This document shows positions 1,286 to 23,329 of a stretch of DNA of 32,000 nucleotides, in pieces. Both the position numbers and the translations under genes were made by a program. This stretch comes from Candidatus Electrothrix sp. GW3-4 (lineage in GTDB: Bacteria; Desulfobacterota; Desulfobulbia; Desulfobulbales; Desulfobulbaceae): contig NZ_CP147990.1 of the NCBI RefSeq assembly GCF_037902255.1, positions 810,001-842,000 of the forward strand. The letters are read 5' to 3'. A model generated the notes under the pieces. That model did no database searches, was not told the origin of the DNA, and worked only from the letters and a program-made list of their open reading frames with translations. Position 1 is the stretch's first letter. Each line of letters opens with the position of its first letter.

Positions 1286-2536
1286 TTAGGAAGAACTGCC
1301 AAGTGCTTGGATCGGATCCATTGCCGCCGCCTTACGGGCCGGGTAGATCCCGAAGAACAGGCCAGTGAGAAGGGATATGCCCAGAGGAAGGGCGAGCAGG
1401 GGTATGGAAAATCCAATGGGCCAGCCGGTCAGCATACCAAGGCATAAAGAGAGAAGGATGCCGCAGAGAATACCTATAATTCCGCCAATAAGGGTGAGCA
1501 AGATAGCCTCGCCCAGGAATTGGAGGAGGATATGTTCCGGGCGGGCACCTACTGCCCGCCGGAGGCCTATCTCATGGATGCGTTCGGAGATATTGGCGAG
1601 CATGATATTCATAATGCCTATGCCGCCGACAAAGAGGGTGATAGCGCCGATGATGCCGAAGACCAGATTAAAGATGCCCTGGATTTTCCTGGCCTGGGCC
1701 AGCATTTCCAGGGGAATGATGAGCTGAAAGTCATTTACCCCGTTATGGGCCATATGCAGGCTTCGGCGGAGGAGGGCAGCACAGGGTTTGACCTGATCCG
1801 GCTGTTTAACCTCAATAAGGAGCTCGGTCAGGGGGGCTGCCTCCTCGCTGTTGCCTTCCAGGGTGTCCAGGGGAAAGAAGATGCTGTTATTGAGGTTCTG
1901 CATGGTGACCTTGCCTTGTTCCGTATTCAATGCATCCTGCCGGGCAAGGATGCCAATGACCAGGAACAATTGCTCACCAATGCGGATCTCCTGGTTAAGC
2001 TGTCCTTTTTGGCCCAAGCTGATGGCGACCTGCCAGCCCAGTACGCAGACCTGCTGACGGCGCTCTGTGTCAGTCTCGCTGAGAAAGCGTCCCTGTGCCA
2101 TCTGGATACCGAGGATATCGCCATAACTGGCCGTGCATTCCATGAGTCGGGGATGCAGACCTCGGGGGAGGTCAGTCAGGTTGAGGGTCCGTTCTCTGGC
2201 GCCTGCTGTGTTGCGGAGAAAGGGATTATTGGTGCGCAGCCTTTCCCGGTCGCTGTTTTGTAGGCCAGCAGAGTGCTGCTGCTTGGCACGGTGTAGCTGT
2301 TCTTCTGTGAGCTGATCTGCACGGATAAATATATTGGTGATGCCCATCTGCTCAATATGGCGCATGGTCTCCTGCTCCGCCCCTTTGCCGATGGCGATCA
2401 CGGCCACCACGGCCATAATTCCACAGACGATGCCCAGGATGGAGAGGAGGGAACGGAGTTTATGCTGGAGCAGGGAAAGGCAGGCGCTTTTCAAAAGAAC
2501 CCGGGCGCGATGCCCCTGTTTATTGTAAACGGCCAT
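1286..2536 (-). CDS. ABC transporter permease, MacB/FtsX family (periplasmic MacB_PCD-like domain plus C-terminal FtsX 4-TM bundle)
   Basis: This 416-aa ORF has an N-terminal TM helix (LLSILGIVCGIMAVVAVIAIG), a large soluble domain and a hydrophobic C-terminal FtsX-like region (..FGIIGAITLFVGGIGIMNIMLANISERIHEIGLRRAVGA..). It overlaps the upstream ATPase gene by 17 nt. Confidence 0.9.
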   Translation of the reverse strand: MAVYNKQGHRARVLLKSACLSLLQHKLRSLLSILGIVCGIMAVVAVIAIGKGAEQETMRHIEQMGITNIFIRADQLTEEQLHRAKQQHSAGLQNSDRERLRTNNPFLRNTAGARERTLNLTDLPRGLHPRLMECTASYGDILGIQMAQGRFLSETDTERRQQVCVLGWQVAISLGQKGQLNQEIRIGEQLFLVIGILARQDALNTEQGKVTMQNLNNSIFFPLDTLEGNSEEAAPLTELLIEVKQPDQVKPCAALLRRSLHMAHNGVNDFQLIIPLEMLAQARKIQGIFNLVFGIIGAITLFVGGIGIMNIMLANISERIHEIGLRRAVGARPEHILLQFLGEAILLTLIGGIIGILCGILLSLCLGMLTGWPIGFSIPLLALPLGISLLTGLFFGIYPARKAAAMDPIQALGSSS

Positions 2537-3182
2537 TGCGCAGATATCTGGTGGTACGGGCTTGCCCGGCGATTGCAGGATCGTGGGTCACCAGGACCAG
2601 GGTGCAGCCCTGTTGGTTGATCTCCCGGAAGAGGGCGAGAATTTCCTGGCTGCTGTTCTGATCCAGATTGCCGGTGGGCTCGTCAGCGAGAATGAGGGCC
2701 GGTTTGACCGCTAAGGCCCTAGCTATGGCCACCCGTTGCATCTCTCCACCGGAAAGCTCATTCGGTTTATGCTGGATCCTCTGTTTAAGCCCCACTTGCT
2801 CAATGGCCCGGCGGGCCTCTGTCTCTGCCTGCTCTGGCGGGATACTGTTATAGAGTGAAGGAAGGAGGACGTTCTCCAGCACGGTCATGGTGGGCAGGAG
2901 GTGAAATTGCTGAAAGACATGGGCAATGGTCTCGGCCCGGAGCTGGGCCAGCTCTTTTTCCTCCAGTTGGAGGATATCCTGGCCGCGCAGGAGGCAGGTG
3001 CCGCTGGTGGGCTTGAGCAGGCAGCCCAGGATATGGAGCAGGGTGGACTTGCCCGAGCCGGAGCTGCCCATGATAGCGAGAAAGTCGTTTTCCTCGATAT
3101 CCAGATCAACGCCTTGCAGGACCTGGAGACAACCTGAGCCATGTTTGTACTGATGGCTGATGTTACGGGCGGAGATGAGCAT
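2520..3182 (-). CDS. ABC transporter ATP-binding protein (MacB/LolD-type ATPase)
   Basis: Walker A is GSSGSGKST, the ABC signature is [15 protein letters not shown] and Walker B is [12 protein letters not shown], with an H-loop THD. No Shine-Dalgarno-like sequence precedes the ATG in the present context (see findings). Confidence 0.95.
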
Positions 3183-3185
3183 TAT
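3176..3185. repeat. left copy of the 10-bp direct repeat TGAGCATTAT bounding the island; it contains the ATPase start codon
   Basis: An exact decamer is shared with 8910-8919. Its reverse complement ATAATGCTCA holds the ATG at 3182-3180. Confidence 0.85.
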
Positions 3186-3470
3186 GTTGCTGGAAAGCTG
3201 AATGTTATAAATACTTCCGTTCGCAGGATTTCAGTGCGATCAAGATTCCCCGAGCTTCAGGGGCTTTACAGGAATCTGCAGGAGGTCAAGGCAATGTTAT
3301 GAATATTTTTTTTAGTCGGGCGGAATTTTGAATAATAACGCAATGCGTGAATAACGTCAAACGTGATAGCAGTTGATCGCTCAAACTTTGATCAGGGCAT
3401 TTTTTTGTTGCGCCACAAGTGTTTTTACGCTGTATCTCATTGTCACGTTAAGGATTTTTGTGAAAAACAG

Positions 3471-3500
3471 TTGACGGGCACGGATTAACAGGGATATGTT
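3471..3500 (+). promoter_or_regulatory. candidate sigma70-type promoter for the island leader/ROCO transcript
   Basis: TTGACG (3471-3476) is followed by a 17-18-nt spacer and ATATGT/TATGTT (3494-3500). This was matched by eye only. Confidence 0.3.
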
Positions 3501-3673
3501 GCGTTTACCATAACAAATGGCAATCCTTAGTTTAACTGAGCGGGTGCCCTGCTTTCCTGTCGGATCGGGAAGCTGATAAAGCCACAACTGTCGTGAGGCG
3601 GTGTCGGAAAGCCACGGGTCTTCGGGGAGGAGACAGCCGGGTTGCCTGCTTTTACCTGTACCGGAGGTGTGTT

Positions 3674-3772
3674 ATGAGTTCTTTATTTCATTCAAGTACC
3701 TTTTCCAGCTTTATCGGCAGGTCTGTTGACTGTCGTGACTCCTCGTACTCGTTTCTATCCCTCAATAGTTAA
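3674..3772 (+). CDS. possible 32-codon Ser-rich leader mini-ORF (MSSLFHSSTFSSFIGRSVDCRDSSYSFLSLNS)
   Basis: The ATG at 3674 follows GGAGG (3663-3667) after a 6-nt spacer, and the stop is TAA at 3770-3772. Twelve of 32 codons are Ser. It is below the ORF-track size cutoff, and there is no homology evidence. Confidence 0.25.
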   Translation: MSSLFHSSTFSSFIGRSVDCRDSSYSFLSLNS

Positions 3773-3840
3773 TCGGGGTTTGATCCTAATGACCCTAGAT
3801 GGCGGAAAAGGGTATAAGTCCGGTCCAACAGGTAATTACA

Positions 3841-3875
3841 GTAGGGGCGACCGGCCGGTCGCCCCTACAGCGCAC
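3841..3875. repeat. REP-like element, copy 1: GTAGGGGCGACCGGCCGGTCGCCCCTACAGCGCAC (28-bp perfect palindrome plus a 7-bp tail)
   Basis: The palindrome GTAGGGGCGACCGG/CCGGTCGCCCCTAC is perfect. The GTAG head and CTAC end resemble REP elements. It lies 99 nt upstream of the ROCO ATG. Confidence 0.85.
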
Positions 3876-3973
3876 GCCGTGTTAGCATTGGCCCCGGTGC
3901 TCATCGTACATAATGCCCCAAAGGGGCTGTATCTAATCAGCTCAGGCTAACGCCCTGAGCCATCTGTATACCG

Positions 3974-6724
3974 ATGGATAGAGAAGCAATAGAAAAAGAA
4001 CTGGCACAGTTCCCTGGGGAATGGGCTGCGGCTTTTGCTGCCCGCTGTGCTGCCCAATGCCTGCCTGCCTTGTTGGAAAAAAAAGATCCGACAGACAGTT
4101 GGTTTGCCTATTGGCCAGACAAAAAGCGGGATCAGTATCTCTTTGCCGTGTTCCGGGCAAACAGTGTAGCTTCCGCCGTTACAGGTGTCGCCTCCTCCGC
4201 CTACATCAACACCGCCTTCAACGCCGCCATCGACGCCGCAGACGCCTCCGTCTACGCCTCCTACGCAGACGCCTCCGCCTATGCCGCCTTCTCGGCCTCC
4301 GCCGTCTTAGACTCCTTCGACACCTCCGCCTCCGCTGTCAACATCACCGCCAACGTAACCGGCCTAGATATTTCGCAACAGCTTGCTCTTCTCAGAAAAG
4401 CCTGCAACAGCCAAGGCAGTTTTACCGACTACCTGTTCCAGCCCCTCTGGCAGCCTGGGGAGGAATGGTATGAACGCGCCAAGGAGTTTGTCCAGGTTCT
4501 CCGTGAGTATGGTTCCGGCTTTGACTTCTGGGCAGACTGGTACGAGGACCGGCTAGAGGGCAGAGCACCGGACAAGGACCTGCTGGATGCCATCGCCAAT
4601 CTATCATACGAGCAGCTGACTCAGGAACCGGCCCAGATCAACGCCTACCTGAAGAGCCTTGTCCATAAAGAGGACTTGGCCGAAAGCAGCCTGAACCGGG
4701 TGCGGGTTATCTTTCTTGGCTACGGTGCCACCGGCAAGACCTCCCTGATCCGGGTGCTCAATAACAAGAAGGTGGTAGAAGGCAAGGAACCCATGACCGC
4801 TGGCATCGACATTCTGGACTGGAAGGTCCCGGACTCGGACATCACAGCCCATTTCTGGGACTTTGGCGGTCAGGTCATGACCCATGCCACCCACCAGTTC
4901 TTCCTGCGCTCGAAATGCCTGTACATCCTGGTCCTGGACGGCAGGACCGAGATCAACGCCAATGAGCAGGCCGAGTACTGGCTGGATCATGTGCGGGCCT
5001 TTGGCAGGGACGCGCCGGTCATGCTCATCGGCAATAAGGCCGACCTCTGCCCGGTGAATCTGGACATGGCCCGACTCCGGGACAAGCACCCCAATGTGAC
5101 TGACTTCTACCCTCTGTCCTGCACCCAATATCGCGGCAACTATGCCCCTCATTTTCAACGCTTCCGGGCTGACCTGCTCCAACAGATCCTGGCCGTGGGT
5201 ATGCACGGCATCCGCTTCCTCAAGCCCCACTTCACCGTCCTGCAGGAGCTGATCAGCCGTTCCGGCAGGGACTCCTTTCTCCGCAAATCAGCCTACGAGA
5301 ACCTGTGCAAGGATAAGGGCGTGGCTAAACAGGGCGACCTGAACCGGGACTGGCTCCTTGACCTGCTGGACAAGCTGGGCGTGGTTCTCCACTTCCCGGA
5401 CATCGCAGACCTGGACAGCCTGATCCTCAACCCCCGCTGGCTCACCTATGGGGTATATCGCCTGCTCTACTCGGAAGCAGCCCAGCAAGCCAAGGGGCGG
5501 CTCAAGGAGCAGGAGGTCATCAGCATCCTGAGCCGACGGGAGGTGGATGATAACCTGGGCAATCCGCTCAGTTATACCCCGGACAAGGCAGGTATCGTAA
5601 TCAAGGCTATGGAACGCTTCCGGCTCTGCTTCCGCTGCCGCCTGGACCCGGACCTGCTCATTATCCCGGCCCTGCTGGAAACAGACCAGCCTGCCCACGG
5701 CTTTATCAAGGCAGACAGTCTCTGCTTCAGCTTTGCCTTTCAGGGCTTCCTGCCCCGCCATGTGCTGCCCAACTTCACTGTGGCCCGCCATGACGAGATA
5801 GCTGACGAGATGGTCTGGCAGAACGGGGTGGTTCTGCGTGCTGAGGATGGCAGGGCCGAGGCCCTGGTCCAGGCTGATTACCATGAACGCAGCCTGACCC
5901 TGTGGGTGCGTGGCCCCCAGGCCGGGCAATACTTCCGCTACCTGCACCAGGATATCTGCCGCATCCTGCGCCGGATGCCGGACCTGCGCTTCAGGGAATG
6001 GGTGACGGTGCCGGAATCCACCCGTATCAAAGAGGAAGCAACAGACTTTCCCCTGCGGTCAGGAAACAACGGGGACAGCCCGGCACGCGCCGACTTTCGT
6101 CAGCTCCTGGCTATGGAGGCCAGAGGACAGAGAGAGTACATCTGCGAGTACGGGGCCTTTGATCTGCATTGCATCCTCCAGATTATGCCTGCCCCAGCCC
6201 GGCAGAGCTACAGGCAGGAGATGCACGGGAGGGCAGAGGTGTATTATGTGCAGCAAACTATAAACGGAGACAACAATACCTTATCCGCTACCGGAGAGGT
6301 AACACATAGCTCAGTCAGAGCCGGAGGAAACATGGGACACACATACAAGAACACCATAACCAACAGCGGTAGCGGAGAGCAGAACATTGCTCAGGGTGAC
6401 GGGGCTATTGGCAAGCAGGTCAATATCTCGGAAACGAATGCACCGCAGGCCCCGGTAGAGGATCTGCTCAAGCTACTGACTGAGATCAAGGCCCGACTGC
6501 CTGAGCTGCCGGACAAGGCACAGATAAAACTGCGTAATGCTGTGGAAGAAGTCGAGATGGAAGTACAGGAGGACAAGCCGGATAGAGAGGAGATCGCAGA
6601 CACGCTGACCCGTGCTCAGAAGGTACTCAAGGCTATACCCGGTACCGTGGCAGCGGCCCAGTCTGTGGGTGTTCTGCTGGGCAAGGCCCTGATATGGTGC
6701 GGCAAGGCGGCAGGGATGTCGTAG
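3974..6724 (+). CDS. Roc-COR (ROCO) family GTPase, 916 aa, with an Ala/Ser/Asp/Tyr-rich helical N-terminal region and an N/G/T/Q-rich linker plus amphipathic/hydrophobic C-terminal tail
   Basis: The G1 P-loop is GYGATGKTS (nt 4718-4744), G3 is WDFGGQ (4856-4873) and G4 is NKAD (5033-5044). COR-like sequence follows (..LLDKLGVVLHFPDIADLDSLILNPRWLTYGVYRLL..). The C-terminus is ..NIAQGDGAIGKQVNI..VEDLLKLLTEIKARLPELPDKAQIKLRNAVEE..GTVAAAQSVGVLLGKALIWCGKAAGMS. No SD precedes the ATG. The stop codon TAG (6722-6724) lies inside REP-like copy 2. Confidence 0.85.
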   Translation: MDREAIEKELAQFPGEWAAAFAARCAAQCLPALLEKKDPTDSWFAYWPDKKRDQYLFAVFRANSVASAVTGVASSAYINTAFNAAIDAADASVYASYADASAYAAFSASAVLDSFDTSASAVNITANVTGLDISQQLALLRKACNSQGSFTDYLFQPLWQPGEEWYERAKEFVQVLREYGSGFDFWADWYEDRLEGRAPDKDLLDAIANLSYEQLTQEPAQINAYLKSLVHKEDLAESSLNRVRVIFLGYGATGKTSLIRVLNNKKVVEGKEPMTAGIDILDWKVPDSDITAHFWDFGGQVMTHATHQFFLRSKCLYILVLDGRTEINANEQAEYWLDHVRAFGRDAPVMLIGNKADLCPVNLDMARLRDKHPNVTDFYPLSCTQYRGNYAPHFQRFRADLLQQILAVGMHGIRFLKPHFTVLQELISRSGRDSFLRKSAYENLCKDKGVAKQGDLNRDWLLDLLDKLGVVLHFPDIADLDSLILNPRWLTYGVYRLLYSEAAQQAKGRLKEQEVISILSRREVDDNLGNPLSYTPDKAGIVIKAMERFRLCFRCRLDPDLLIIPALLETDQPAHGFIKADSLCFSFAFQGFLPRHVLPNFTVARHDEIADEMVWQNGVVLRAEDGRAEALVQADYHERSLTLWVRGPQAGQYFRYLHQDICRILRRMPDLRFREWVTVPESTRIKEEATDFPLRSGNNGDSPARADFRQLLAMEARGQREYICEYGAFDLHCILQIMPAPARQSYRQEMHGRAEVYYVQQTINGDNNTLSATGEVTHSSVRAGGNMGHTYKNTITNSGSGEQNIAQGDGAIGKQVNISETNAPQAPVEDLLKLLTEIKARLPELPDKAQIKLRNAVEEVEMEVQEDKPDREEIADTLTRAQKVLKAIPGTVAAAQSVGVLLGKALIWCGKAAGMS

Positions 6725-6755
6725 GGGCGACCGGCCGGTTGCCCCTACAGCGCAC
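6721..6755. repeat. REP-like element, copy 2 (34/35 identical to copy 1, same orientation of the AGCGCAC tail)
   Basis: The sequence is GTAGGGGCGACCGGCCGGTTGCCCCTACAGCGCAC. It starts exactly 2880 bp after copy 1 and has a single C-to-T difference at 6740. Confidence 0.85.
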
Positions 6756-6836
6756 CACTTCTGGACATGCCCTGTTGGTGCGGAGACCGTAACCTACGAG
6801 CTGAAAAACAGCATGCCTTCCGTGAGACAAACACGG

Positions 6837-6951
6837 TAGGGTTTGCCTTCCAAAAGGCGTAGGTTTTGCCTGTCAAAAGGCATAGGGTTTGCCTTCCAAA
6901 AGGCATGGGTTTTGTCTATCAAAAGGCGTAAGGTTTGCCTTCCTGATGGGC
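6837..6951. repeat. tandem array of five 23-bp units (alternating A/B subtypes, i.e. a 46-bp higher-order period), each with a GCCTT-N4-AAGGC mini-palindrome
   Basis: The units are TAGGGTTTGCCTTCCAAAAGGCG (6837), TAGGTTTTGCCTGTCAAAAGGCA (6860), TAGGGTTTGCCTTCCAAAAGGCA (6883), TGGGTTTTGTCTATCAAAAGGCG (6906) and TAAGGTTTGCCTTCCTGATGGGC (6929). The 23-bp phasing continues with GGGCACCC at 6948 and 6971. Confidence 0.85.
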
Positions 6952-7073
6952 ACCCCTTAGACACCCTGAGGGGCACCCTTTTGATTCGCAAAAATACTCG
7001 AATTGATCAATGTCTATATCCATCTCTTTCCATAAAGAATAATCATTTCTTATCAGGAGGTTCCCCATGCCGG

Positions 7074-8027
7074 TTGGATACTAATGTCAGAGAGAACAAA
7101 CTCACCACGCCCCCTTCATACTACTGTCAGACAACTGCGGAAGAAACTCTCGGCAATGACGAGGTCGCGGAACTTATTCATACGCTGAATCCGACAATCA
7201 CCACTGCGCAGGCTAAGACGGTTCTGCAGAACTTCCAGCAGGTTGTCACAGAGCAGGTTGCCGACGGCAAGTTCGTCAAGTTGAAGAACTTCGTCTCCTT
7301 CATGCCGCGCCTCCAGGTGCGTCTGGACGTTCCGACCGATGATATTCCGCCTGATGCGGTGAAAGTTGCGGCCAAGGTCCCGAGGCAGTTCAATCGGGCT
7401 GTTCAGAATATAGCGACCTACGAAAGGCTCGGTTATCCGTCCAAGGCCCCTGAAGTGGTCACCGGGTACGAGACAACGACGGAGTATCCCCGCTTTATCA
7501 GGGAAGGATATCCGTTCCGTCTTACCGGGAAATACATTGGTTTTGATGTTGCGGATGAGGACCTGGGAATCTTCCTGGTTGATGCCGATGACAATGAGAT
7601 CGAGCAGGATAAGATTGCCCTCAATGACCCGTCAAAGGTGATCATCACGGCAGACTTCGGCGGGGAGCCTGCTGTATCACCCAATGTGGAGAAGACCATC
7701 CACTGCCGCAACAGATATACCCGGCACGGCACCCTCCGGGAGGGATCATACGAGTACGTAAGGAGTATGAATTACATTGCATCTGATCAGCTTGAGATGT
7801 TTGTTGCCGGTTCCGATGCAACCGGACCTGTTCAGGCTGTGCAGCACGATGCTCCGGCTGAGGACTGCCGCGTTGAGGCCATATTGAAGCCGGATGATAC
7901 GATCACCCTGGCAATCGGGCCGTACACAGGAGAGATGGGGCCTCCTGTTTCCGTTACAGGCGGAGATATTGTCCTGACCGGGCTTGCTGTTGATGTTACG
8001 CTCAATATTGCTGACCAGGATGCATAA
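7074..8027 (+). CDS. HU-like (HU_HIG-type) DNA-binding domain protein with a DUF4469-like Ig-fold C-terminal region, 317 aa
   Basis: This is the frame of track ORF 6843..8027, whose N-terminal 77 codons read through the tandem array and look spurious. The proposed TTG start at 7074 lies 13 nt after AGGAGG (7055-7060). The N-terminus LDTNVRENKLTTPPSYYCQT..DEVAELIHTLNPTITTAQAKTVLQNFQQVVTEQVADGKFVKLKNFVSF follows the HU-fold pattern of Bacteroidota-type HU/DUF4469 proteins as I remember them. The later segment ..FRLTGKYIGFDVADEDLGIFLVDADDNEIEQDKIALNDPSKVIITADF also fits that family. Confidence 0.65.
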   Translation: MDTNVRENKLTTPPSYYCQTTAEETLGNDEVAELIHTLNPTITTAQAKTVLQNFQQVVTEQVADGKFVKLKNFVSFMPRLQVRLDVPTDDIPPDAVKVAAKVPRQFNRAVQNIATYERLGYPSKAPEVVTGYETTTEYPRFIREGYPFRLTGKYIGFDVADEDLGIFLVDADDNEIEQDKIALNDPSKVIITADFGGEPAVSPNVEKTIHCRNRYTRHGTLREGSYEYVRSMNYIASDQLEMFVAGSDATGPVQAVQHDAPAEDCRVEAILKPDDTITLAIGPYTGEMGPPVSVTGGDIVLTGLAVDVTLNIADQDA

Positions 8028-8298
8028 CGATACGCTGTATAACTTCCTGCTGGCGCGAGGACGATATGTCCTGGAGGTCTGCAATATGGATCAGTTCGGC
8101 CGTCACTGATCATCACGGATGTCTGTGCTGCAAAGCCGGAGCGGAAGCACCGGTTCTCTTGTCCCTGTCCTTACAAAATCTTTACAATTTATTTCTTGAT
8201 TAACCCATTCCCTTTATGTTCATTGTCTACAGTGCAGGCATGAAGTAAGGAAACAAGTCTACGTAAAATGTAAAAAATGGAAAATCAAGGAGAAAAAT

Positions 8299-8859
8299 AT
8301 GCAGCTCGATACCCAATCCAAGCTCGGTAGCAATACATTGGCATTACACTGGATCGTAGGCATCATGATGATAATGTTATTGGCAGTAGGTGTCTTCATG
8401 GAAGAAACAAAAGCTTATGCGCTGTATCCTTGGCATAAAGCATTTGGCGTATTGATTATATTTCCTGTTATTCTCCGAGTGGTCTGGAGAATAAAAAGCG
8501 GTTGGCCTCCTCCTGTTCGTGAATACAAAAAGTCAGAGAAAATACTTTCAAAGTTTGTCCATTATCTTTTGCTGATCGGTACGGTGATCCTGCCGATTTC
8601 AGGTTTTATGATGTCAGCAATGGGGGGGCATGGTGTTGAGGTGTTCGGCTTGGAGCTTGTACCCCGAAACCCTGATCCAGCTAATCCGATGGAAGTCGTT
8701 CCATTGAACGGGGCAGTTGCAGGTATTGCCCATGAACTGCACGCTTTAGCTGGCACCAGCATTATCATCGGAGTGATCCTTCATACTGTTGGAGTATTAA
8801 AGCACCATATACTCGATAAGGATGGAACATTACTCCGCATGCTGGGAGCGAAAGTTTGA
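8299..8859 (+). CDS. cytochrome b561 family protein (CybB-like di-haem membrane cytochrome)
   Basis: The 186-aa protein has four hydrophobic helices with conserved His positions (ALHW.., WHKAFG.., AHELHALAG.., LHTVGVLKHH). The SD is AAGGAG, 7 nt upstream of the ATG. Confidence 0.85.
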   Translation: MQLDTQSKLGSNTLALHWIVGIMMIMLLAVGVFMEETKAYALYPWHKAFGVLIIFPVILRVVWRIKSGWPPPVREYKKSEKILSKFVHYLLLIGTVILPISGFMMSAMGGHGVEVFGLELVPRNPDPANPMEVVPLNGAVAGIAHELHALAGTSIIIGVILHTVGVLKHHILDKDGTLLRMLGAKV

Positions 8860-8909
8860 CTTTATACCCGATTCGAACCTTTTTAATGCCTGGGATTGCG
8901 GGTGGAGGT

Positions 8910-8919
8910 TGAGCATTAT
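8910..8919. repeat. right copy of the 10-bp direct repeat TGAGCATTAT
   Basis: This exact decamer lies 10 nt downstream (in minus-strand sense) of the adaptor gene stop codon at 8930-8932. Confidence 0.85.
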
Positions 8920-8929
8920 ATCACCATGA

Positions 8930-10354
8930 TCAATAACCATCAGGGCGCACCAAGAAGACCTGCTCTCCTTTGGCCAGCCCTTCAGTGATCTCGATGAGAT
9001 GTTCGTTGCTCTGCCCGGTTTGCAGACTGCGTTGTTGCACCTCTGTACCGGTCTGAACATAACAGAAGGGACCTCCGTTATCCTGGAACACAGCTTCAAT
9101 GGGTAGGGAGAGTGCCTGAGTGACCTGTGCGGTTTGCAGTTCCACTCGGGCAGACATGCCCGGCCTGAGCCGTTTCTCGCTGGTCTTGAGCGCGAAATGG
9201 GCCTGGAAATATTTTTCTCCAGACCGTCGTCCTTGCTGTTTTTGGGCCAAGGCACCGATAAAGGCCAGTTCTCCCTGGAGGTGGAGGGATGGGTAGGCGT
9301 CCAGAGTGATCAGGGCGGGTTGACCTACCGCGATCTTATGGAGGTCGATTTCCCGGACCTTGCTTTTGACGATCAGGCTGCTCAGGTCTGGCAGGGAGAG
9401 GATGGGTTGATTGATGATGACCGTATCACCCTCCTGAGCGGTCCGCATTTCGCCATTGCGGAAGGCCTCATGATGAATAACCAGGCCGTTAAAGGGGGCG
9501 TAGAGGGTGGTTTTTTCCAGCTCTGCTTCTACCTGGCGCAGGGCTGCCCGGGCTGCTTGCAATTTGGCCTGGACCTGATCCACAGCAGCCTTGGCTCGGG
9601 CAATTTCATGGACACCGGCCTTACTGGTCTGTTGCAGGCTTAACTTGGCATTCTCCACCTTGGCAGTGGCGGTTTCCGTGAGTGAGGGGAGGATGAAGTC
9701 GTGGTACGCTGTATAGCGTCGCTTTGCACTGGCAAACTCTTCTTGAAGGACCCTGATCTTGTCGCGAATGCGGGTCAATTCCGCAGGGTTCTCGTAGCCT
9801 TCCTGTGCCAATTTCTCCAGATCAACCGCATATTCCTGGTATCGTTTGAGCTCCAGTTTTGCTTTGTCTCGCTCATCCCGATGTTGGGCCAGGGTCATGG
9901 GGCCATCTCCTTTGACAAGCCGTTGCAGATCAAGTTCCGCGACCCTGAGGCTGTAGCGGGCGGTCTCGTTTTTATGGCCCACCTCTATCTTTTCCCAGTG
10001 GAGGAGCTGCTCAGCCGCTTCAAGGCCTGCGGTCAGATCGTCGATCTGGGCTGTACATTCGGCAATCTCCTCTTCAAAACGAGTGGGATCAAAGCGCACC
10101 AGGATATCTCCTTTTTTGACCGGATACCCATCCTGGGCAAGAAAAATAATCTTTGCCCCTGGCCCCTTGATACGGGAGGCGACCAAATGGGAGTTCACTG
10201 CCTGGAGGGTGCCGACCGTGCGCACTGTTACCTGGAAATCCCGGAGCGTTGCTGTGGTCAAGGGGGGAGAGTGTCCAGCAGGAGGAGGGGCGTACTGTCT
10301 CAACAGGAATAGCACAAAGAGGGCAGCGCAGAGAAGAGAGAGGAAATATTTCAT
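8930..10354 (-). CDS. HlyD/MacA-family periplasmic adaptor (membrane fusion protein) of a tripartite efflux system
   Basis: The 474-aa protein has an N-terminal TM anchor (LLCAALFVLFLL), a lipoyl-like segment (..VKKGDILVRFD..), a long coiled-coil hairpin and a C-terminal beta-barrel (..RPGMSARVELQ..). Its start overlaps the TolC-like stop by 4 nt (ATGA). Confidence 0.9.
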   Translation of the reverse strand: MKYFLSLLCAALFVLFLLRQYAPPPAGHSPPLTTATLRDFQVTVRTVGTLQAVNSHLVASRIKGPGAKIIFLAQDGYPVKKGDILVRFDPTRFEEEIAECTAQIDDLTAGLEAAEQLLHWEKIEVGHKNETARYSLRVAELDLQRLVKGDGPMTLAQHRDERDKAKLELKRYQEYAVDLEKLAQEGYENPAELTRIRDKIRVLQEEFASAKRRYTAYHDFILPSLTETATAKVENAKLSLQQTSKAGVHEIARAKAAVDQVQAKLQAARAALRQVEAELEKTTLYAPFNGLVIHHEAFRNGEMRTAQEGDTVIINQPILSLPDLSSLIVKSKVREIDLHKIAVGQPALITLDAYPSLHLQGELAFIGALAQKQQGRRSGEKYFQAHFALKTSEKRLRPGMSARVELQTAQVTQALSLPIEAVFQDNGGPFCYVQTGTEVQQRSLQTGQSNEHLIEITEGLAKGEQVFLVRPDGY

Positions 10355-11826
10355 GGGGCCTCGGGACTGTCCTCGCGAGAGGTATTCAAAGCAAGCAGGG
10401 TGCCCATGGCAGCACGAAAGCGGTATCTGTCAGTGATGTAGCGGAGTTCATCGCTCATAAGATCAATCCGGGCCTGTTCGAGTTGGGTCTCTGCTTCAAG
10501 GAGATCAAAATTATCCGCTTCATTATACTGAAATTTAATCTTTGCTAACCGTTGTTTCCCTGTTGCCTGGTGGATTTGTTCCCGGCGGAGGGCAATGCGC
10601 TCCTTGGAGGCATTAAGGGTGTTGAGCACGGTACGCACTTCCCGAATAATTTTTTCCCGGGAGGATTCCAGGCTCAGGCGGCTGCGATTAACCGCCAGGC
10701 GGCTATTGGCCAGGGCAGCCTCTTCTGTAAAACGTGCCCAGTTTGTGCTGCTGGTCAGAGAAAGAGACCAGATATCTTCATCCGGGAGCAGGAAGTTTTC
10801 AAACTCCTCTGACTCTCCCTGGCGGGTGTAGCCCAGTTTGAGCCTGAGGTCGGGCAGGGTGTTCTCTTTTGCCACCTTTTCCTTGCGCAGGGCCTCAGTG
10901 ATATCAGCCCGGCCCTGGGTTATCTCAAGCCGGTGTTGCAGGGCGATCTGCACGGCCTCGTTCAGCTTGATATTGATCAGGGTATATTGCAAAGGGGCCT
11001 CGACCTCTATGGGCCGATCCAGGGGCAGGGCCAGGAGGTCTTTGAGGCGATCAGCTGCCTCAGCCGCGTGTCTTTGGGCGTTGTTCAGCTGCTCCTCAAT
11101 CTTTTTCAGCCGCAGTTCGGCCCGGTAGCCATCCATAGAACGGCCGATGCCTGCTTTTTCCCTGATGCGGGCGGTGTGCAGATGCCCTTTGAGGGGAGGT
11201 AACTGGTCTGCATAGAGATTGACAAGATATTGGGCACGAATCAGGGTATAGACCGCCTGCACGGTCTCCAGCACGGTGTTGATCTTAGAGCGGTGCAGCC
11301 TGCGAGAGGAGGTGGCCAGGCTGTGCTTCCGCGCCAGCACTGTATTGAGGGTCGTATCTCTGCCAAACCCCCGTAGCAATGGCATTGCCAGCGAACAGCT
11401 GATTCCTGTTCCGTAGGCATCATCATCTATTTCCACACTGGGCGCAACCCCGATCTGGATGCCGTTTGGGAATTTTTTCGAGACCTCGCCGCCAACTCTC
11501 CAGACGACCTGCTCTTCATCATTCTCTTCGTCATCAGTGGAGGAGTAATTGATACTGGAGATCGGGGTGAACTGCACAGAGAACCTGTCACGTGCCTCAT
11601 TCAAATAGATCTGGTTGCTGCTCAGGTCAAGGGCGCTGTTCCTGAGCTGGCGATTATAGCGTAATGCCCGGTTGATGGCCTCTTCCAGGGTGAGCTCCGT
11701 TGGGGGGGGCGCTTCCCTTGCAATGGTCCGCGTTGTGGGGAAAAGAAATACCACCGGAAACACCATCAGGACAAAGATGGTCCTGGCATGAAGGGATAAG
11801 CGATCAACGAAAAACAGGCTTTGCAT
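10351..11826 (-). CDS. TolC-family outer-membrane efflux protein
   Basis: The 491-aa protein has a signal-like N-terminus. The typical LTLEEAINRALRYNRQLR.. motif is followed by two repeated coiled-coil/beta halves. It is translationally coupled to the adaptor gene. Confidence 0.9.
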   Translation of the reverse strand: MQSLFFVDRLSLHARTIFVLMVFPVVFLFPTTRTIAREAPPPTELTLEEAINRALRYNRQLRNSALDLSSNQIYLNEARDRFSVQFTPISSINYSSTDDEENDEEQVVWRVGGEVSKKFPNGIQIGVAPSVEIDDDAYGTGISCSLAMPLLRGFGRDTTLNTVLARKHSLATSSRRLHRSKINTVLETVQAVYTLIRAQYLVNLYADQLPPLKGHLHTARIREKAGIGRSMDGYRAELRLKKIEEQLNNAQRHAAEAADRLKDLLALPLDRPIEVEAPLQYTLINIKLNEAVQIALQHRLEITQGRADITEALRKEKVAKENTLPDLRLKLGYTRQGESEEFENFLLPDEDIWSLSLTSSTNWARFTEEAALANSRLAVNRSRLSLESSREKIIREVRTVLNTLNASKERIALRREQIHQATGKQRLAKIKFQYNEADNFDLLEAETQLEQARIDLMSDELRYITDRYRFRAAMGTLLALNTSREDSPEAP

Positions 11827-23160: not shown

Positions 23161-23329
23161 GAGTTGGGGGGGCTGTCAACTCAGCATCGGAAGAACTTGA
23201 GTCTCCCTGCCCTTGCCACCCACCGTTAAAACGGTGGGCTATTATCAATCGCCCCTCCAGGGCGGGGATACTCGGAAAACAGCGTCCCGGAGGGACTGCC
23301 GAAAATAGCCCGGTGTTTCAACGCCGGGC
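23161..23329. repeat. cluster of five short GC-rich hairpins (REP/BIME-like intergenic module)
   Basis: The hairpins are GAGTTG..CAACTC (23161-23182), CCCACCGTTaaAACGGTGGG (23219-23238), CGCCCctccaGGGCG (23250-23264), GTCCCggaGGGAC (23283-23295) and GCCCGGTGTTtcAACGCCGGGC (23308-23329). Confidence 0.5.
23300..23329 (-). terminator. intrinsic terminator of leuD
   Basis: On the minus-strand RNA, 10 nt after the leuD stop, comes GCCCGGCGUUGAAACACCGGGC (a 10-bp stem including one G-U pair). It is followed by UAUUUUCGG. Confidence 0.55.

What the first reader, a model, noticed from the sequence alone, without database searches (positions are those of the whole stretch)
3176..8919. Tripartite ABC-efflux operon split by a 5.7-kb opposite-strand island bounded by a 10-bp direct repeat that contains the ATPase start codon
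The TolC-like (10351-11826) and HlyD/MacA-like (8930-10354) genes and the matching ABC ATPase (2520-3182) and FtsX permease (1286-2536) are all on the minus strand. They are separated by 5.7 kb of plus-strand genes. The decamer TGAGCATTAT occurs at 3176-3185, where its reverse complement ATAATGCTCA carries the ATPase ATG at 3182-3180. It occurs again at 8910-8919, just 10 nt past the adaptor stop codon (8930-8932). Deleting 3186-8919 in silico gives ...GATGGTTATTGAtcatGGTGAtataATGCTCATCTCC... That reads as the adaptor stop, a GGTGA Shine-Dalgarno-like box, and the ATPase ATG 13 nt after the stop, which is a normal coupled operon junction. In the present arrangement the ATPase ATG has no SD-like sequence upstream (..ccagcaacataATG). 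The orphan repeat copy keeps the SD, and its ATG (8916-8914) now opens a 28-codon ORF running antisense into the 3' end of the cytochrome b561 gene (stop at 8830). I see no integrase, no transposase and no terminal inverted repeats inside. The insertion mechanism is therefore open: a target-site duplication, the att core of a decayed or cis-mobilisable element, or microhomology-mediated capture. The cargo (ROCO GTPase, HU-like protein, cytochrome b561, repeat arrays) is itself unusual.
Basis: partly seen in the sequence, partly recalled or inferred. Interest (0 to 1): 0.75.

Follow-up and report, generated by a model that had tools for sequence, protein, structure and literature searches.

The report
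Efflux operon split by mosaic islet
In the cable bacterium Ca. Electrothrix GW3-4, a four-gene efflux-pump operon has been cut in two at the start of its ATPase gene by a 5.7-kb patchwork of unrelated genes that differs between species and has been swapped between them; the case is real and well documented, but it is a fairly ordinary kind of genomic islet.

Summary
TGAGCATTAT occurs only at 3176-3185 and 8910-8919, and the gene calls are correct. The predicted empty site exists. Two Electrothrix contigs (L001, L018) and three outgroup contigs carry adaptor and ATPase 15-22 nt apart.

The interpretation needs correcting.
- The decamer is the still-identical core of a decayed duplication of about 34 nt of the ATPase 5' end. 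It is not a 10-bp target-site duplication.
- No unsplit relative has a Shine-Dalgarno box at this junction, so that argument fails.
- The island is not one recent insertion. It is present in most sampled Electrothrix species and its cargo differs in each.
- It contains nested insertions with their own long direct repeats (53 nt, 57-78 nt). The ROCO gene sits in a cassette bracketed by REP palindromes.
- A GEMM-I (c-di-GMP-type) riboswitch is its most conserved part.

All four transporter genes stay under purifying selection (dN/dS 0.05-0.14).

Island tracts are 93-100% identical between species whose genome-wide ANI is 77-82%. The tract edges fall at the orphan ATG and about 340 nt into the ATPase gene, so the islet spreads by recombination. 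How it first inserted is unresolved.

The parts
1286..2536 (-). MacB-type permease (MacB_PCD + FtsX domains), distal half of the split operon
   Evidence: Pfam; NCBIfam MacB 178 bits; dN/dS 0.09-0.13 against L015 and L021
2520..3182 (-). ABC ATPase (LolD/MacB-like). The N-terminus MLISARN is conserved in all orthologs, so ATG 3182-3180 is the true start
   Evidence: dN/dS 0.05-0.12
3153..3185 (-). ATPase-side copy of the duplicated segment (ATA + first 30 nt of the gene); the decamer is 3176-3185
3186..3370 (-). New upstream leader of the ATPase. The 15 nt next to the ATG (cAGCTTTCCrrCAAnATA) are shared by split genomes of both clades. The rest is window-specific and holds a promoter-like site, TTGACG-17-TATTAT, at 3360-3332
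   Evidence: Promoter function is inferred only
3571..3650 (+). GEMM-I type riboswitch aptamer (c-di-GMP-I / c-di-GMP-I-GGC). It points away from the ATPase into the island cargo and is the most conserved island component
   Evidence: Rfam 56.1 bits against a gathering score of 35; 58.4 bits to the GGC variant; orthologous copies in L008, L009, L019, L021 and L025
3791..6825 (+). ROCO cassette: REP palindrome 3841-3875, Roc-COR gene 3974-6724, REP palindrome 6721-6755. It is absent from the same slot in other species
   Evidence: L009 has a RAYT plus REPs in this slot. A ROCO ortholog with the left REP lies at an unrelated locus in L023
6836..6943 (+). 23-nt tandem hairpin repeat (4.7 copies) upstream of the HU-like gene; 10 copies in E. 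aestuarii
7074..8109 (+). HU-HIG/DUF4469 gene, shared by islands of both clades. In this genome a 1-nt insertion creates a stop at 8025-8027; the ancestral stop is at 8107-8109
8112..8881 (+). Cytochrome b561 module (gene 8299-8859). Present in GW3-4, E. aestuarii and E. scaldis; absent from the type-B islands (L002-4, L014-16). GC3 is 0.44 against 0.60-0.72 for its neighbours
8882..8919 (-). Orphan copy of the ATPase 5' end (decamer 8910-8919). It is 35/35 identical in E. aestuarii and E. scaldis and opens the small ORF 8916-8830
8930..10354 (-). Periplasmic adaptor (RND_mfp/HlyD), proximal half of the operon
   Evidence: TIGR01730, 140 bits against a cutoff of 94.9; dN/dS about 0.10
10351..11826 (-). 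Outer-membrane factor (OEP/TolC family), first gene of the operon
   Evidence: dN/dS 0.11-0.14

Best explanation
Shown: the ancestor of these cable bacteria had a contiguous OEP-adaptor-ATPase-permease operon. In most Electrothrix species it is interrupted exactly at the ATPase start by oppositely oriented DNA. About 34 nt of the ATPase 5' end (-3 to +31) are present twice. The functional copy sits on the gene. A decayed orphan copy sits behind the adaptor stop.

Shown: the insert is not a unit. Its conserved core is a riboswitch-led region next to the ATPase plus an HU-like/DUF4469 gene. Other cargo was added or exchanged separately: ROCO between REP palindromes, cytochrome b561, Uma2/PDDEXK_2, toxin-antitoxin pairs, RAYT, FG-GAP and lectin genes. 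Several of these additions have their own long imperfect direct repeats made from the ends of the interrupted genes. Island tracts are far more similar between species than the genomes are, and the tract edges lie at the orphan ATG and inside the ATPase gene.

Inferred: the islet originated and spreads by recombination, not by a transposase. One end is anchored by homology in the conserved ATPase 5' region. The other end joins at the short ATPase-like orphan segment (homology-facilitated illegitimate recombination, or Campbell-type integration). The pump still works as two transcription units, and the islet supplies the promoter for ATPase-permease.
For: Contiguous ancestral state: the outgroups L011, L012, L013 and L005 and the unsplit Electrothrix alleles L001 and L018.

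Longer duplication: one L001 segment aligns to both window copies; anchored alignment gives p = 0.001-0.03.

Shared junctions: the leader cAGCTTTCC..CAAnATA|ATG is present in the window, L008, L009, L010, L015 and L019. The orphan is present in the window, L019 and L021.

Mosaic cargo.

Nested long repeats: a 57-nt repeat around a BrnT/BrnA-like cassette in L016 and a 53-nt repeat around Uma2+PDDEXK_2 in L019.

Purifying selection on all four transporter genes among split genomes: dN/dS 0.05-0.14 at dS 0.3-1.2.

Lateral exchange:
- Between the window and E. aestuarii or E. scaldis, identity is 89-98% over cytochrome b561, 95-100% over the HU-like gene and 94-98% over the first ~340 nt of the ATPase. 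It is 62-88% over adaptor and OEP and 57-88% over the ATPase 3' half.
- dS is 0.14-0.19 for island genes against 0.9-1.2 for adaptor and OEP.
- Published genome-wide ANI of GW3-4 to other Electrothrix species is 77.4-82.3% (PMC11247825).
- In the first 135 nt of the ATPase gene, split clade-B genomes follow clade A at 13 of 13 informative sites. Further downstream the split is 8 to 8 (Fisher p = 0.003).
Against: No step of the insertion mechanism is observed directly. A 34-nt homeologous segment is a poor substrate for RecA.

The unsplit alleles L001 and L018 form a pair with 97% bootstrap support inside ATPase clade B. L001's adaptor is sister to that of the split genome L014. The history therefore needs either lateral spread of the split allele or one precise loss, and these cannot be told apart here.

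Lower dS in island genes could partly reflect gene-specific rates. Many relatives are short MAG or metagenome contigs. Expression of the two halves and the activity of the predicted promoters are untested. The type-B islands lack the orphan copy, so a secondary deletion has to be assumed for them.
Confidence: 0.65

Rival explanations
1. The islet is, or was, a site-specific integrative element without its own integrase (cis-mobilisable). Its attL and attR share the core (ATA)ATGCTCA at the 5' end of the ATPase gene. An integrase encoded elsewhere inserts and excises it, and excision re-fuses the operon.
For: Direct repeats lie exactly at both junctions. They have a 7-10 nt identical core and imperfect flanking similarity, as in att sites. 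The ATPase-side junction is the same in both clades. Unsplit alleles are nested among split ones. The orphan is 35/35 conserved across three species. The edge of the laterally shared tract falls exactly at the orphan ATG.
Against: The only integrase-like hit is a fragment about 9.4 kb upstream of the ATPase in E. communis, among IS elements. No inverted recombinase-binding arms are visible around the core. The other exchange boundary lies about 340 nt, or about 135 nt, inside the ATPase gene rather than at the repeat, which fits homologous crossover. Nested insertions carry long repeats of unrelated sequence, so one att-specific enzyme cannot explain them all. The type-B islands have lost the orphan copy.
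Confidence: 0.2
2. A classical transposon or IS-mediated insertion made a 10-bp target-site duplication and later lost its transposase and ends.
For: An exact 10-bp direct repeat lies at both junctions. Electrothrix genomes are rich in IS elements: 120 predicted in E. scaldis (PMC10926707).
Against: Similarity continues to about 34 nt. There are no terminal inverted repeats and no transposase in the window. In E. aestuarii and E. scaldis only 7 nt (ATGCTCA) are shared exactly.
Confidence: 0.04
3. The two gene pairs were never one operon in this lineage and the decamer is a chance repeat, or the arrangement is an assembly artefact.
For: Chance 10-mer pairs are common in 32 kb. Many related contigs are fragmentary.
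Against: Contiguous four-gene operons exist in the outgroups and in two Electrothrix contigs. Independent assemblies are identical or nearly identical to the window: L007 matches over its full 8.8 kb, and L006 and L007 encode all the genes they cover at 100% identity. The same split is present in three closed genomes.
Confidence: 0.01

Closest known systems
MacAB-TolC / DevBCA-type tripartite ABC exporters (type VII ABC, MacB superfamily)
   Same: An outer-membrane factor, a periplasmic adaptor, an ABC ATPase and a MacB_PCD/FtsX permease. They are encoded in that order in the unsplit relatives.
   Different: ATPase and permease are separate polypeptides; E. coli MacB is a fusion (my knowledge). 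Here the operon is cut between adaptor and ATPase. The substrate is unknown.
Integrative elements that target the 5' end of a gene and replace its upstream region, e.g. SXT/R391 in prfC (my knowledge, not tested here)
   Same: The insertion lies at the very start of a gene. The direct repeat contains the gene's start. The inserted DNA supplies the new upstream region, and the gene stays functional.
   Different: No integrase, conjugation or excision genes. The repeat is imperfect (about 77%). The content is mosaic and differs between species.
Homology-facilitated illegitimate recombination / one-sided homologous integration of foreign DNA (described for Acinetobacter and Streptococcus pneumoniae; my knowledge)
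   Same: One boundary of the transferred tract lies inside a conserved gene, as a homologous anchor. The other lies at a very short similarity. The results are variable-length imperfect duplications or deletions of recipient sequence.
   Different: It is inferred here from comparative sequence only. Natural transformation has not been shown for cable bacteria.
REP elements with their RAYT transposase (REPINs)
   Same: The 28-nt palindrome GTAGGGGCGACCGGCCGGTCGCCCCTAC brackets the ROCO gene. The orthologous slot in L009 holds a RAYT-like gene with the same palindromes.
   Different: REPINs are not known to carry a 2.7-kb gene between them (my knowledge). The RAYT match is below NCBI's cutoff (61.8 against 80 bits).
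Regions of genome plasticity / integration hotspots between conserved flanking genes
   Same: The flanks are conserved, the cargo differs in every species, toxin-antitoxin and nuclease genes are present, and there is evidence of exchange by flank recombination.
   Different: The hotspot lies inside an operon of one functional machine rather than between unrelated core genes.

Membership tests
Tripartite MacB-type ABC efflux system | Outer-membrane factor of the TolC/OEP family | tested here: met
   PF02321, 115.7 bits, two repeats
Tripartite MacB-type ABC efflux system | Periplasmic adaptor (membrane fusion protein) | tested here: met
   TIGR01730 RND_mfp, 140.5 bits against a cutoff of 94.9; MacA 99.7 bits
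Tripartite MacB-type ABC efflux system | ABC ATPase plus a permease with a MacB periplasmic core domain and an FtsX domain | tested here: met
   PF00005, PF12704 and PF02687. The equivalog cutoffs for MacB and LolD are not reached, so this is the family and not a named ortholog
Tripartite MacB-type ABC efflux system | The four genes act together as one pump | not testable with these tools
   Indirect only: contiguous operon in the outgroups and purifying selection on all four genes
Integrase-mediated integrative element / genomic island | Flanking direct repeats (attL/attR) with an empty site in relatives | tested here: met
Integrase-mediated integrative element / genomic island | Tyrosine or serine recombinase gene in the element | tested here: not met
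   None in the window, L015, L019 or L021
Integrase-mediated integrative element / genomic island | Excision to a circle with a restored target site | not testable with these tools
   Needs reads or PCR from a culture
DDE transposon / IS | Terminal inverted repeats and a transposase | tested here: not met
DDE transposon / IS | Short target-site duplication of fixed length (2-14 bp) | tested here: not met
   The repeat extends to about 34 nt
c-di-GMP-I (GEMM-I) riboswitch | Match to the Rfam covariance model above the gathering score | tested here: met
   56.1 bits against 35 in the window. Orthologs score 52.6-63.5 bits in five other loci. The GGC-variant model scores 58.4 against 59 in the window and above its cutoff in L008 and L019
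c-di-GMP-I (GEMM-I) riboswitch | Ligand binding and control of the downstream gene | not testable with these tools
   No clear terminator follows the aptamer. The downstream gene differs between species
REP/RAYT (REPIN) system | Palindromic REP copies associated with a Y1 (RAYT) transposase | tested here: inconclusive
   REPs at 3841 and 6721. L009 gene: NF047646, 61.8 bits, E 7e-17, below the 80-bit cutoff, with REPs at L009 778 and 1020. There is no RAYT in the window

The most novel reading that the evidence does not exclude
Cable bacteria have a cassette-insertion process that has not been described. It would place small gene modules at the ends of genes and duplicate 34-78 nt of the target each time: the ATPase 5' end in the window, the HU-like 3' end in L019, and the adaptor stop plus HU-like 3' end in L016. 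It might be driven by the PD-(D/E)XK (Rpn-like/Uma2) nucleases that travel in these modules. The islet that splits the pump operon would then be its oldest visible product.
Probability: 0.08. Interest if true: 0.7.

Novelty: new member of a known kind. Interest (0 to 1): 0.38.

Why it matters
The case shows in unusual detail how an operon for one multi-protein machine can be cut in two and still be kept. A duplicated gene start preserves the ATPase, both halves stay under selection, and the insert becomes a shared slot for exchangeable cargo among species. For cable-bacteria biology it flags three things: a conserved GEMM-I riboswitch in front of ever-changing genes (a Roc-COR GTPase in GW3-4), a REP/RAYT system, and inter-species recombination tracts in organisms that cannot yet be grown in pure culture or manipulated genetically. 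It does not reveal a new kind of system.

Tried and rejected
- Extension of the duplication upstream. I suspected that the ATPase leader was a decayed copy of the adaptor 3' end plus spacer. Local alignments against L001, L018, L011, L013 and the window's own adaptor side were no better than shuffles, so I rejected the idea.
- Composition as a marker of foreign origin. Island GC is 0.536 against 0.524 for the rest of the window, and the tetranucleotide distance is within the window's range. Only cytochrome b561 stands out (GC3 0.44).
- A structured RNA or terminator in the orphan region. Folding z-scores were between -1.2 and +1.2.
- A phage or defence-island origin. The HU-like protein has no relative in viral contigs. 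There were no PHROG or PADLOC hits of note, apart from PDDEXK_2 matching phrog_3300 'transposase' and a weak ROCO C-terminal hit to PDC-M14B.
- tRNA genes as integration targets. None are present in the window.
- An integron reading. There is no integron integrase, and the repeats are duplicated local sequence rather than attC-like sites.
- Literature. No paper in the library discusses this locus, riboswitches or c-di-GMP signalling in cable bacteria.

Full report
**Source and observation.** The window comes from the closed genome of Ca. Electrothrix sp. GW3-4. Exact protein look-ups give consecutive accessions from WYD85066 (ATPase) to WYD85072 (M17 peptidase). The strain is named Ca. E. antwerpensis in PMC11247825. 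TGAGCATTAT occurs only at 3176-3185 and 8910-8919. Pfam and NCBIfam confirm the gene calls:
- MacB-type permease, 1286-2536(-)
- ABC ATPase, 2520-3182(-)
- Roc-COR protein, 3974-6724(+)
- HU-HIG/DUF4469 protein; its real start is 7074, as in the public gene call
- cytochrome b561, 8299-8859(+)
- RND_mfp/HlyD adaptor, 8930-10354(-)
- OEP, 10351-11826(-)

An exact 10-mer pair is not rare in 32 kb. What matters is where the two copies sit and what relatives show.

**The empty site exists.** Three outgroup contigs whose ATPase is about 70% identical (L011, L012, L013) carry OEP-adaptor-ATPase-permease as one operon, with 15-22 nt between adaptor and ATPase. A Myxococcota contig (L005, adaptor 50% identical) has the same gene order. 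Two Electrothrix contigs from independent samples are also unsplit:
- L001...GGTTACTGA tcatctcctttgatatt ATGCTTATTTCTGCCCGCAAT
- L018...GATTACTGA tcggttccctacacaatatt ATGCTTATTTCTGCC

**The repeat is longer than 10 nt.** BLAST aligns L001 through the adaptor stop as far as window 8894. It also aligns L001 11452-11748 to window 3185-2889, so one 25-nt stretch of L001 matches both window copies. Written out:
- orphan: ATAATGCTCA-A-C-C-TCC-A-CCCG-C-AAT-CC-CAG-G-CAT
- gene: ATAATGCTCA-T-C---TCC-G-CCCG-T-AAC-AT-CAG-C-CAT

I ran an alignment anchored at the end of the decamer and scored it against 2000 random 45-mers from the window. It gave p = 0.027 with the window's own ATPase and p = 0.001-0.0025 with the orthologs in L008, L009, L010 and L015. 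The duplication does not extend upstream: the ATPase leader shows no similarity to the adaptor 3' end or spacer. The duplicated unit therefore runs from about -3 to about +31 of the ATPase gene. That is too long for a transposase-type target duplication.

**The Shine-Dalgarno argument fails.** None of the unsplit junctions has a Shine-Dalgarno box. The GGTGA at the orphan is specific to GW3-4; E. aestuarii and E. scaldis read TGAtccATG there.

**The split is widespread and the insert is a mosaic.**

On the ATPase side, the ATPase is preceded by the conserved leader cAGCTTTCC(r)(r)CAAnATA|ATG and not by the adaptor in AX5 (L008), a JGI contig (L009), a Logan contig (L010), L015 and E. aestuarii (L019). 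E. scaldis (L021) has a truncated leader. I did not read the leader in E. communis (L025), but no adaptor lies within 10 kb upstream of its ATPase; IS66, Y2_Tnp and an integrase fragment lie there instead.

On the adaptor side there are two junction types:
- Type A (GW3-4, E. aestuarii, E. scaldis) keeps the orphan followed by cytochrome b561.
- Type B (E. aarhusensis L002, L003, E. marina L004, L014, L015, L016) reads TGA-(t/g)gatat-tttttattcggga and then runs straight into the stop codon of the HU-like gene, or in L003 and L004 into a retained fragment of its 3' end. It has no orphan and no cytochrome b561. One deletion from a type-A ancestor would explain it.

Cargo between the two ends:

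| Genome | Cargo |
|---|---|
| GW3-4 (window) | ROCO, HU-like, cytochrome b561 |
| E. aestuarii (L019) | 117-aa gene, 1493-aa FG-GAP_2, HU-like, Uma2, PDDEXK_2, cytochrome b561 |
| E. scaldis (L021) | Uma2, several small genes, FlmR_OhkR_N, Uma2, PDDEXK_2, cytochrome b561 |
| L015 | HU-like, 100-aa gene, 729-aa β-propeller-lectin-like gene |
| L009 (partial) | RAYT-like gene, HU-like |

**Nested events.**
- ROCO lies in a segment (about 3791-6825) that is missing from L009. It is bracketed by a 28-nt perfect palindrome plus 7 nt, at 3841-3875 and 6721-6755.
- In L009 the same slot holds a gene matching the REP-associated tyrosine transposase model (61.8 bits, E 7e-17, below the 80-bit cutoff). 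The same palindrome family lies at its end and inside it.
- A ROCO ortholog (86% nt identity) with the left palindrome lies at an unrelated locus in another Electrothrix assembly, L023.
- In L019, the Uma2+PDDEXK_2 module is flanked by a 53-nt direct repeat (85% identical) made of the HU-like 3' end. The PDDEXK_2 protein matches phrog_3300 'transposase' (E 8e-21).
- In L016, a BrnT/BrnA-like toxin-antitoxin cassette is flanked by a 57-nt repeat with one mismatch. The repeat comprises the adaptor stop codon, the spacer and the HU-like 3' end. L003 and L004 share this insertion, with a longer first copy.
- L021 has a 37-nt perfect repeat around an 84-aa gene.

Long, locally derived direct repeats at gene ends are thus a recurring signature here, and the sequence differs each time.

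**A conserved regulatory core.** Rfam finds a GEMM-I type riboswitch at 3571-3650(+). It scores 56.1 bits to c-di-GMP-I (gathering score 35) and 58.4 bits to the GGC variant (gathering score 59). Orthologous copies, always pointing away from the ATPase, are present in L008, L009, L019, L021 and L025. The gene that follows differs in every genome. Promoter-like sites face both ways in the window: minus strand 3360-3332, TTGACG-17-TATTAT; plus strand 3471-3500. L008, L009, L015 and L019 share a different promoter-like stretch about 95 nt upstream of the ATPase ATG. Promoter activity is inferred, not shown.

**Both halves are kept.** Among split genomes, dN/dS is 0.05-0.12 for the ATPase, 0.07-0.13 for the permease, 0.06-0.11 for the adaptor and 0.08-0.14 for OEP, at dS 0.3-1.2. 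The split is therefore old and both halves are still functional. E. marina L004 is an exception: it lacks OEP and the first ~50 adaptor codons.

**History.** In the ATPase tree, clade A (GW3-4, E. aestuarii, E. scaldis, L009) has 91-93% bootstrap support. Clade B (L008, L010, L015, E. communis, plus the unsplit L018 and L001) has 100% support on the full-length gene. The unsplit pair has 97% support. L001's adaptor is sister to that of the split genome L014 (93% amino-acid identity). Its last ~150 nt and its stop region, however, resemble GW3-4 and not L014. Presence and absence of the split are therefore not tree-like.

Two observations point to lateral exchange by recombination.
1. Published ANI between GW3-4 and other Electrothrix species is 77.4-82.3%. 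Against E. aestuarii, GW3-4 is 89-98% identical over cytochrome b561 and its upstream region, 95-100% over most of the HU-like gene, 93% over the riboswitch block and 94-98% over the first ~340 nt of the ATPase. It is only 62-88% identical over adaptor and OEP and 57-88% over the rest of the ATPase. dS is 0.14-0.19 for island genes against 0.9-1.2 for adaptor and OEP. The adaptor-side edge of the similar tract is the orphan ATG itself. The orphan is 35/35 identical, while the spacer and the adaptor 3' end next to it are about 74% identical.
2. In the first 135 nt of the ATPase gene, split clade-B genomes agree with clade A at 13 of 13 sites where clade A and the unsplit allele differ. Further downstream the count is 8 to 8 (Fisher p = 0.003).

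So the islet travels together with the first 135-340 nt of the ATPase gene.

**Mechanism.** What is shown:
- a duplication of the gene start
- recombination tracts that end inside the ATPase gene and at the orphan
- repeated nested insertions with long imperfect repeats

What is inferred: the islet integrates and spreads by recombination. The conserved ATPase 5' region serves as a homologous anchor, and the short ATPase-like orphan serves as the other joint. This could be homology-facilitated illegitimate recombination, or Campbell-type integration of a circle. I rate this at about 0.65 including the shown parts. The specific mechanism alone would rate about 0.4.

The main rival (about 0.2) is a site-specific, cis-mobilisable element with an ATGCTCA core. 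It would explain the nested unsplit alleles and the strikingly conserved orphan. It lacks an integrase and visible binding arms, and it does not explain the crossovers inside the gene.

**Verdict.** What it describes is a known kind of thing: a recombining islet or hotspot that happens to sit inside an operon. The by-products may be the more interesting leads. They are the riboswitch slot, the REP-bracketed ROCO gene, the recurrent long gene-end duplications, and the conserved small ORF MLNLHPQSQALKR(F/V)ESG, which shows three synonymous changes.

Noticed in passing
window 3571-3650 (+); L008 2182-2259, L009 1621-1698, L019 1420-1497, L021 4784-4862, L025 8926-9004: A GEMM-I type riboswitch (c-di-GMP-I, borderline to the GGC variant) is conserved at the ATPase-proximal end of the islet in six genomes. 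The gene directly downstream differs in each: REP-ROCO, RAYT, 117 aa + FG-GAP_2, 161 aa, Lcl_C. No paper in the library mentions riboswitches in cable bacteria.
   Followed up: partly
window 3841-3875 and 6721-6755; L009 778-803 and 1020-1045; L023 2042-2069: The REP-like palindrome GTAGGGGCGACCGG(C)CGGTCGCCCCTAC brackets the ROCO gene. L009 has a RAYT-like gene in that slot. A ROCO ortholog with the left REP sits at an unrelated locus in L023, so the ROCO cassette has moved.
   Followed up: partly
window 8020-8109: The HU-like/DUF4469 gene carries a 1-nt insertion (GCATAACG against GCATACG in E. aestuarii) that creates a stop at 8025-8027. The last 28 codons are still readable in the +1 frame up to TGA 8107-8109. 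The same sequence is present in two Logan assemblies (L006, L007) from sequencing runs SRR28154588 and SRR28154589, so it is probably real.
   Followed up: yes
window 6836-6943; L019 6580-6901: A 23-nt tandem repeat, each unit a small hairpin (TGCCTTCCAAAAGGCA) with a T-rich tail, lies upstream of the HU-like gene. There are 4.7 copies in GW3-4 and 10 in E. aestuarii. Its function is unknown; terminator stack or binding-site array are possibilities.
   Followed up: no
window 8830-8916 (-); L019 10567-10617, L021 same: The orphan start codon opens a small ORF whose first 17 codons, MLNLHPQSQALKR(F/V)ESG, are kept in E. aestuarii and E. scaldis with three synonymous changes and one replacement. 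The first 35 nt are identical. This could be constraint or simply recent shared ancestry.
   Followed up: partly
L019 8045-8097 / 9792-9844; L016 601-657 / 1371-1429; L021 7598-7634 / 8062-8098: Three further small cassettes at this locus are each flanked by long direct repeats of local sequence: Uma2+PDDEXK_2 'transposase' (53 nt), a BrnT/BrnA-like pair (57 nt) and an 84-aa gene (37 nt).
   Followed up: partly
window 23219-23264 (+); L023 1300-1345 and two more partial copies: An Acido-Lenti-1 RNA motif (44-47 bits, above the gathering score) is present in the window. It is repeated around toxin-antitoxin and small genes upstream of the ROCO ortholog in L023.
   Followed up: no
window 2096-2828 against L021: Within FtsX and the ATPase, a ~730-nt patch (FtsX 5' third plus ATPase 3' half) is only 57-87% identical to E. 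scaldis. The flanking FtsX 3' part (87-98%) and ATPase 5' part (92-98%) are far above the genome ANI. The coding sequence of the pump is itself a recombination mosaic.
   Followed up: partly
L004 6766-7000; L025 1-10000: The E. marina MAG lacks OEP and the first ~50 adaptor codons, with the M17 peptidase gene directly adjacent. E. communis has no adaptor within 10 kb upstream of the ATPase; that region holds IS66, a Y2_Tnp fragment, an integrase fragment, HigB/HTH and Lcl_C genes.
   Followed up: no
window 3974-6724, residues 790-901: The C-terminal region of the Roc-COR protein, beyond COR-B, gives weak hits to the PADLOC candidate defence family PDC-M14B (E 4e-7). Roc-COR proteins are a multi-copy family in cable bacteria, with a second paralog in GW3-4.
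   Followed up: no
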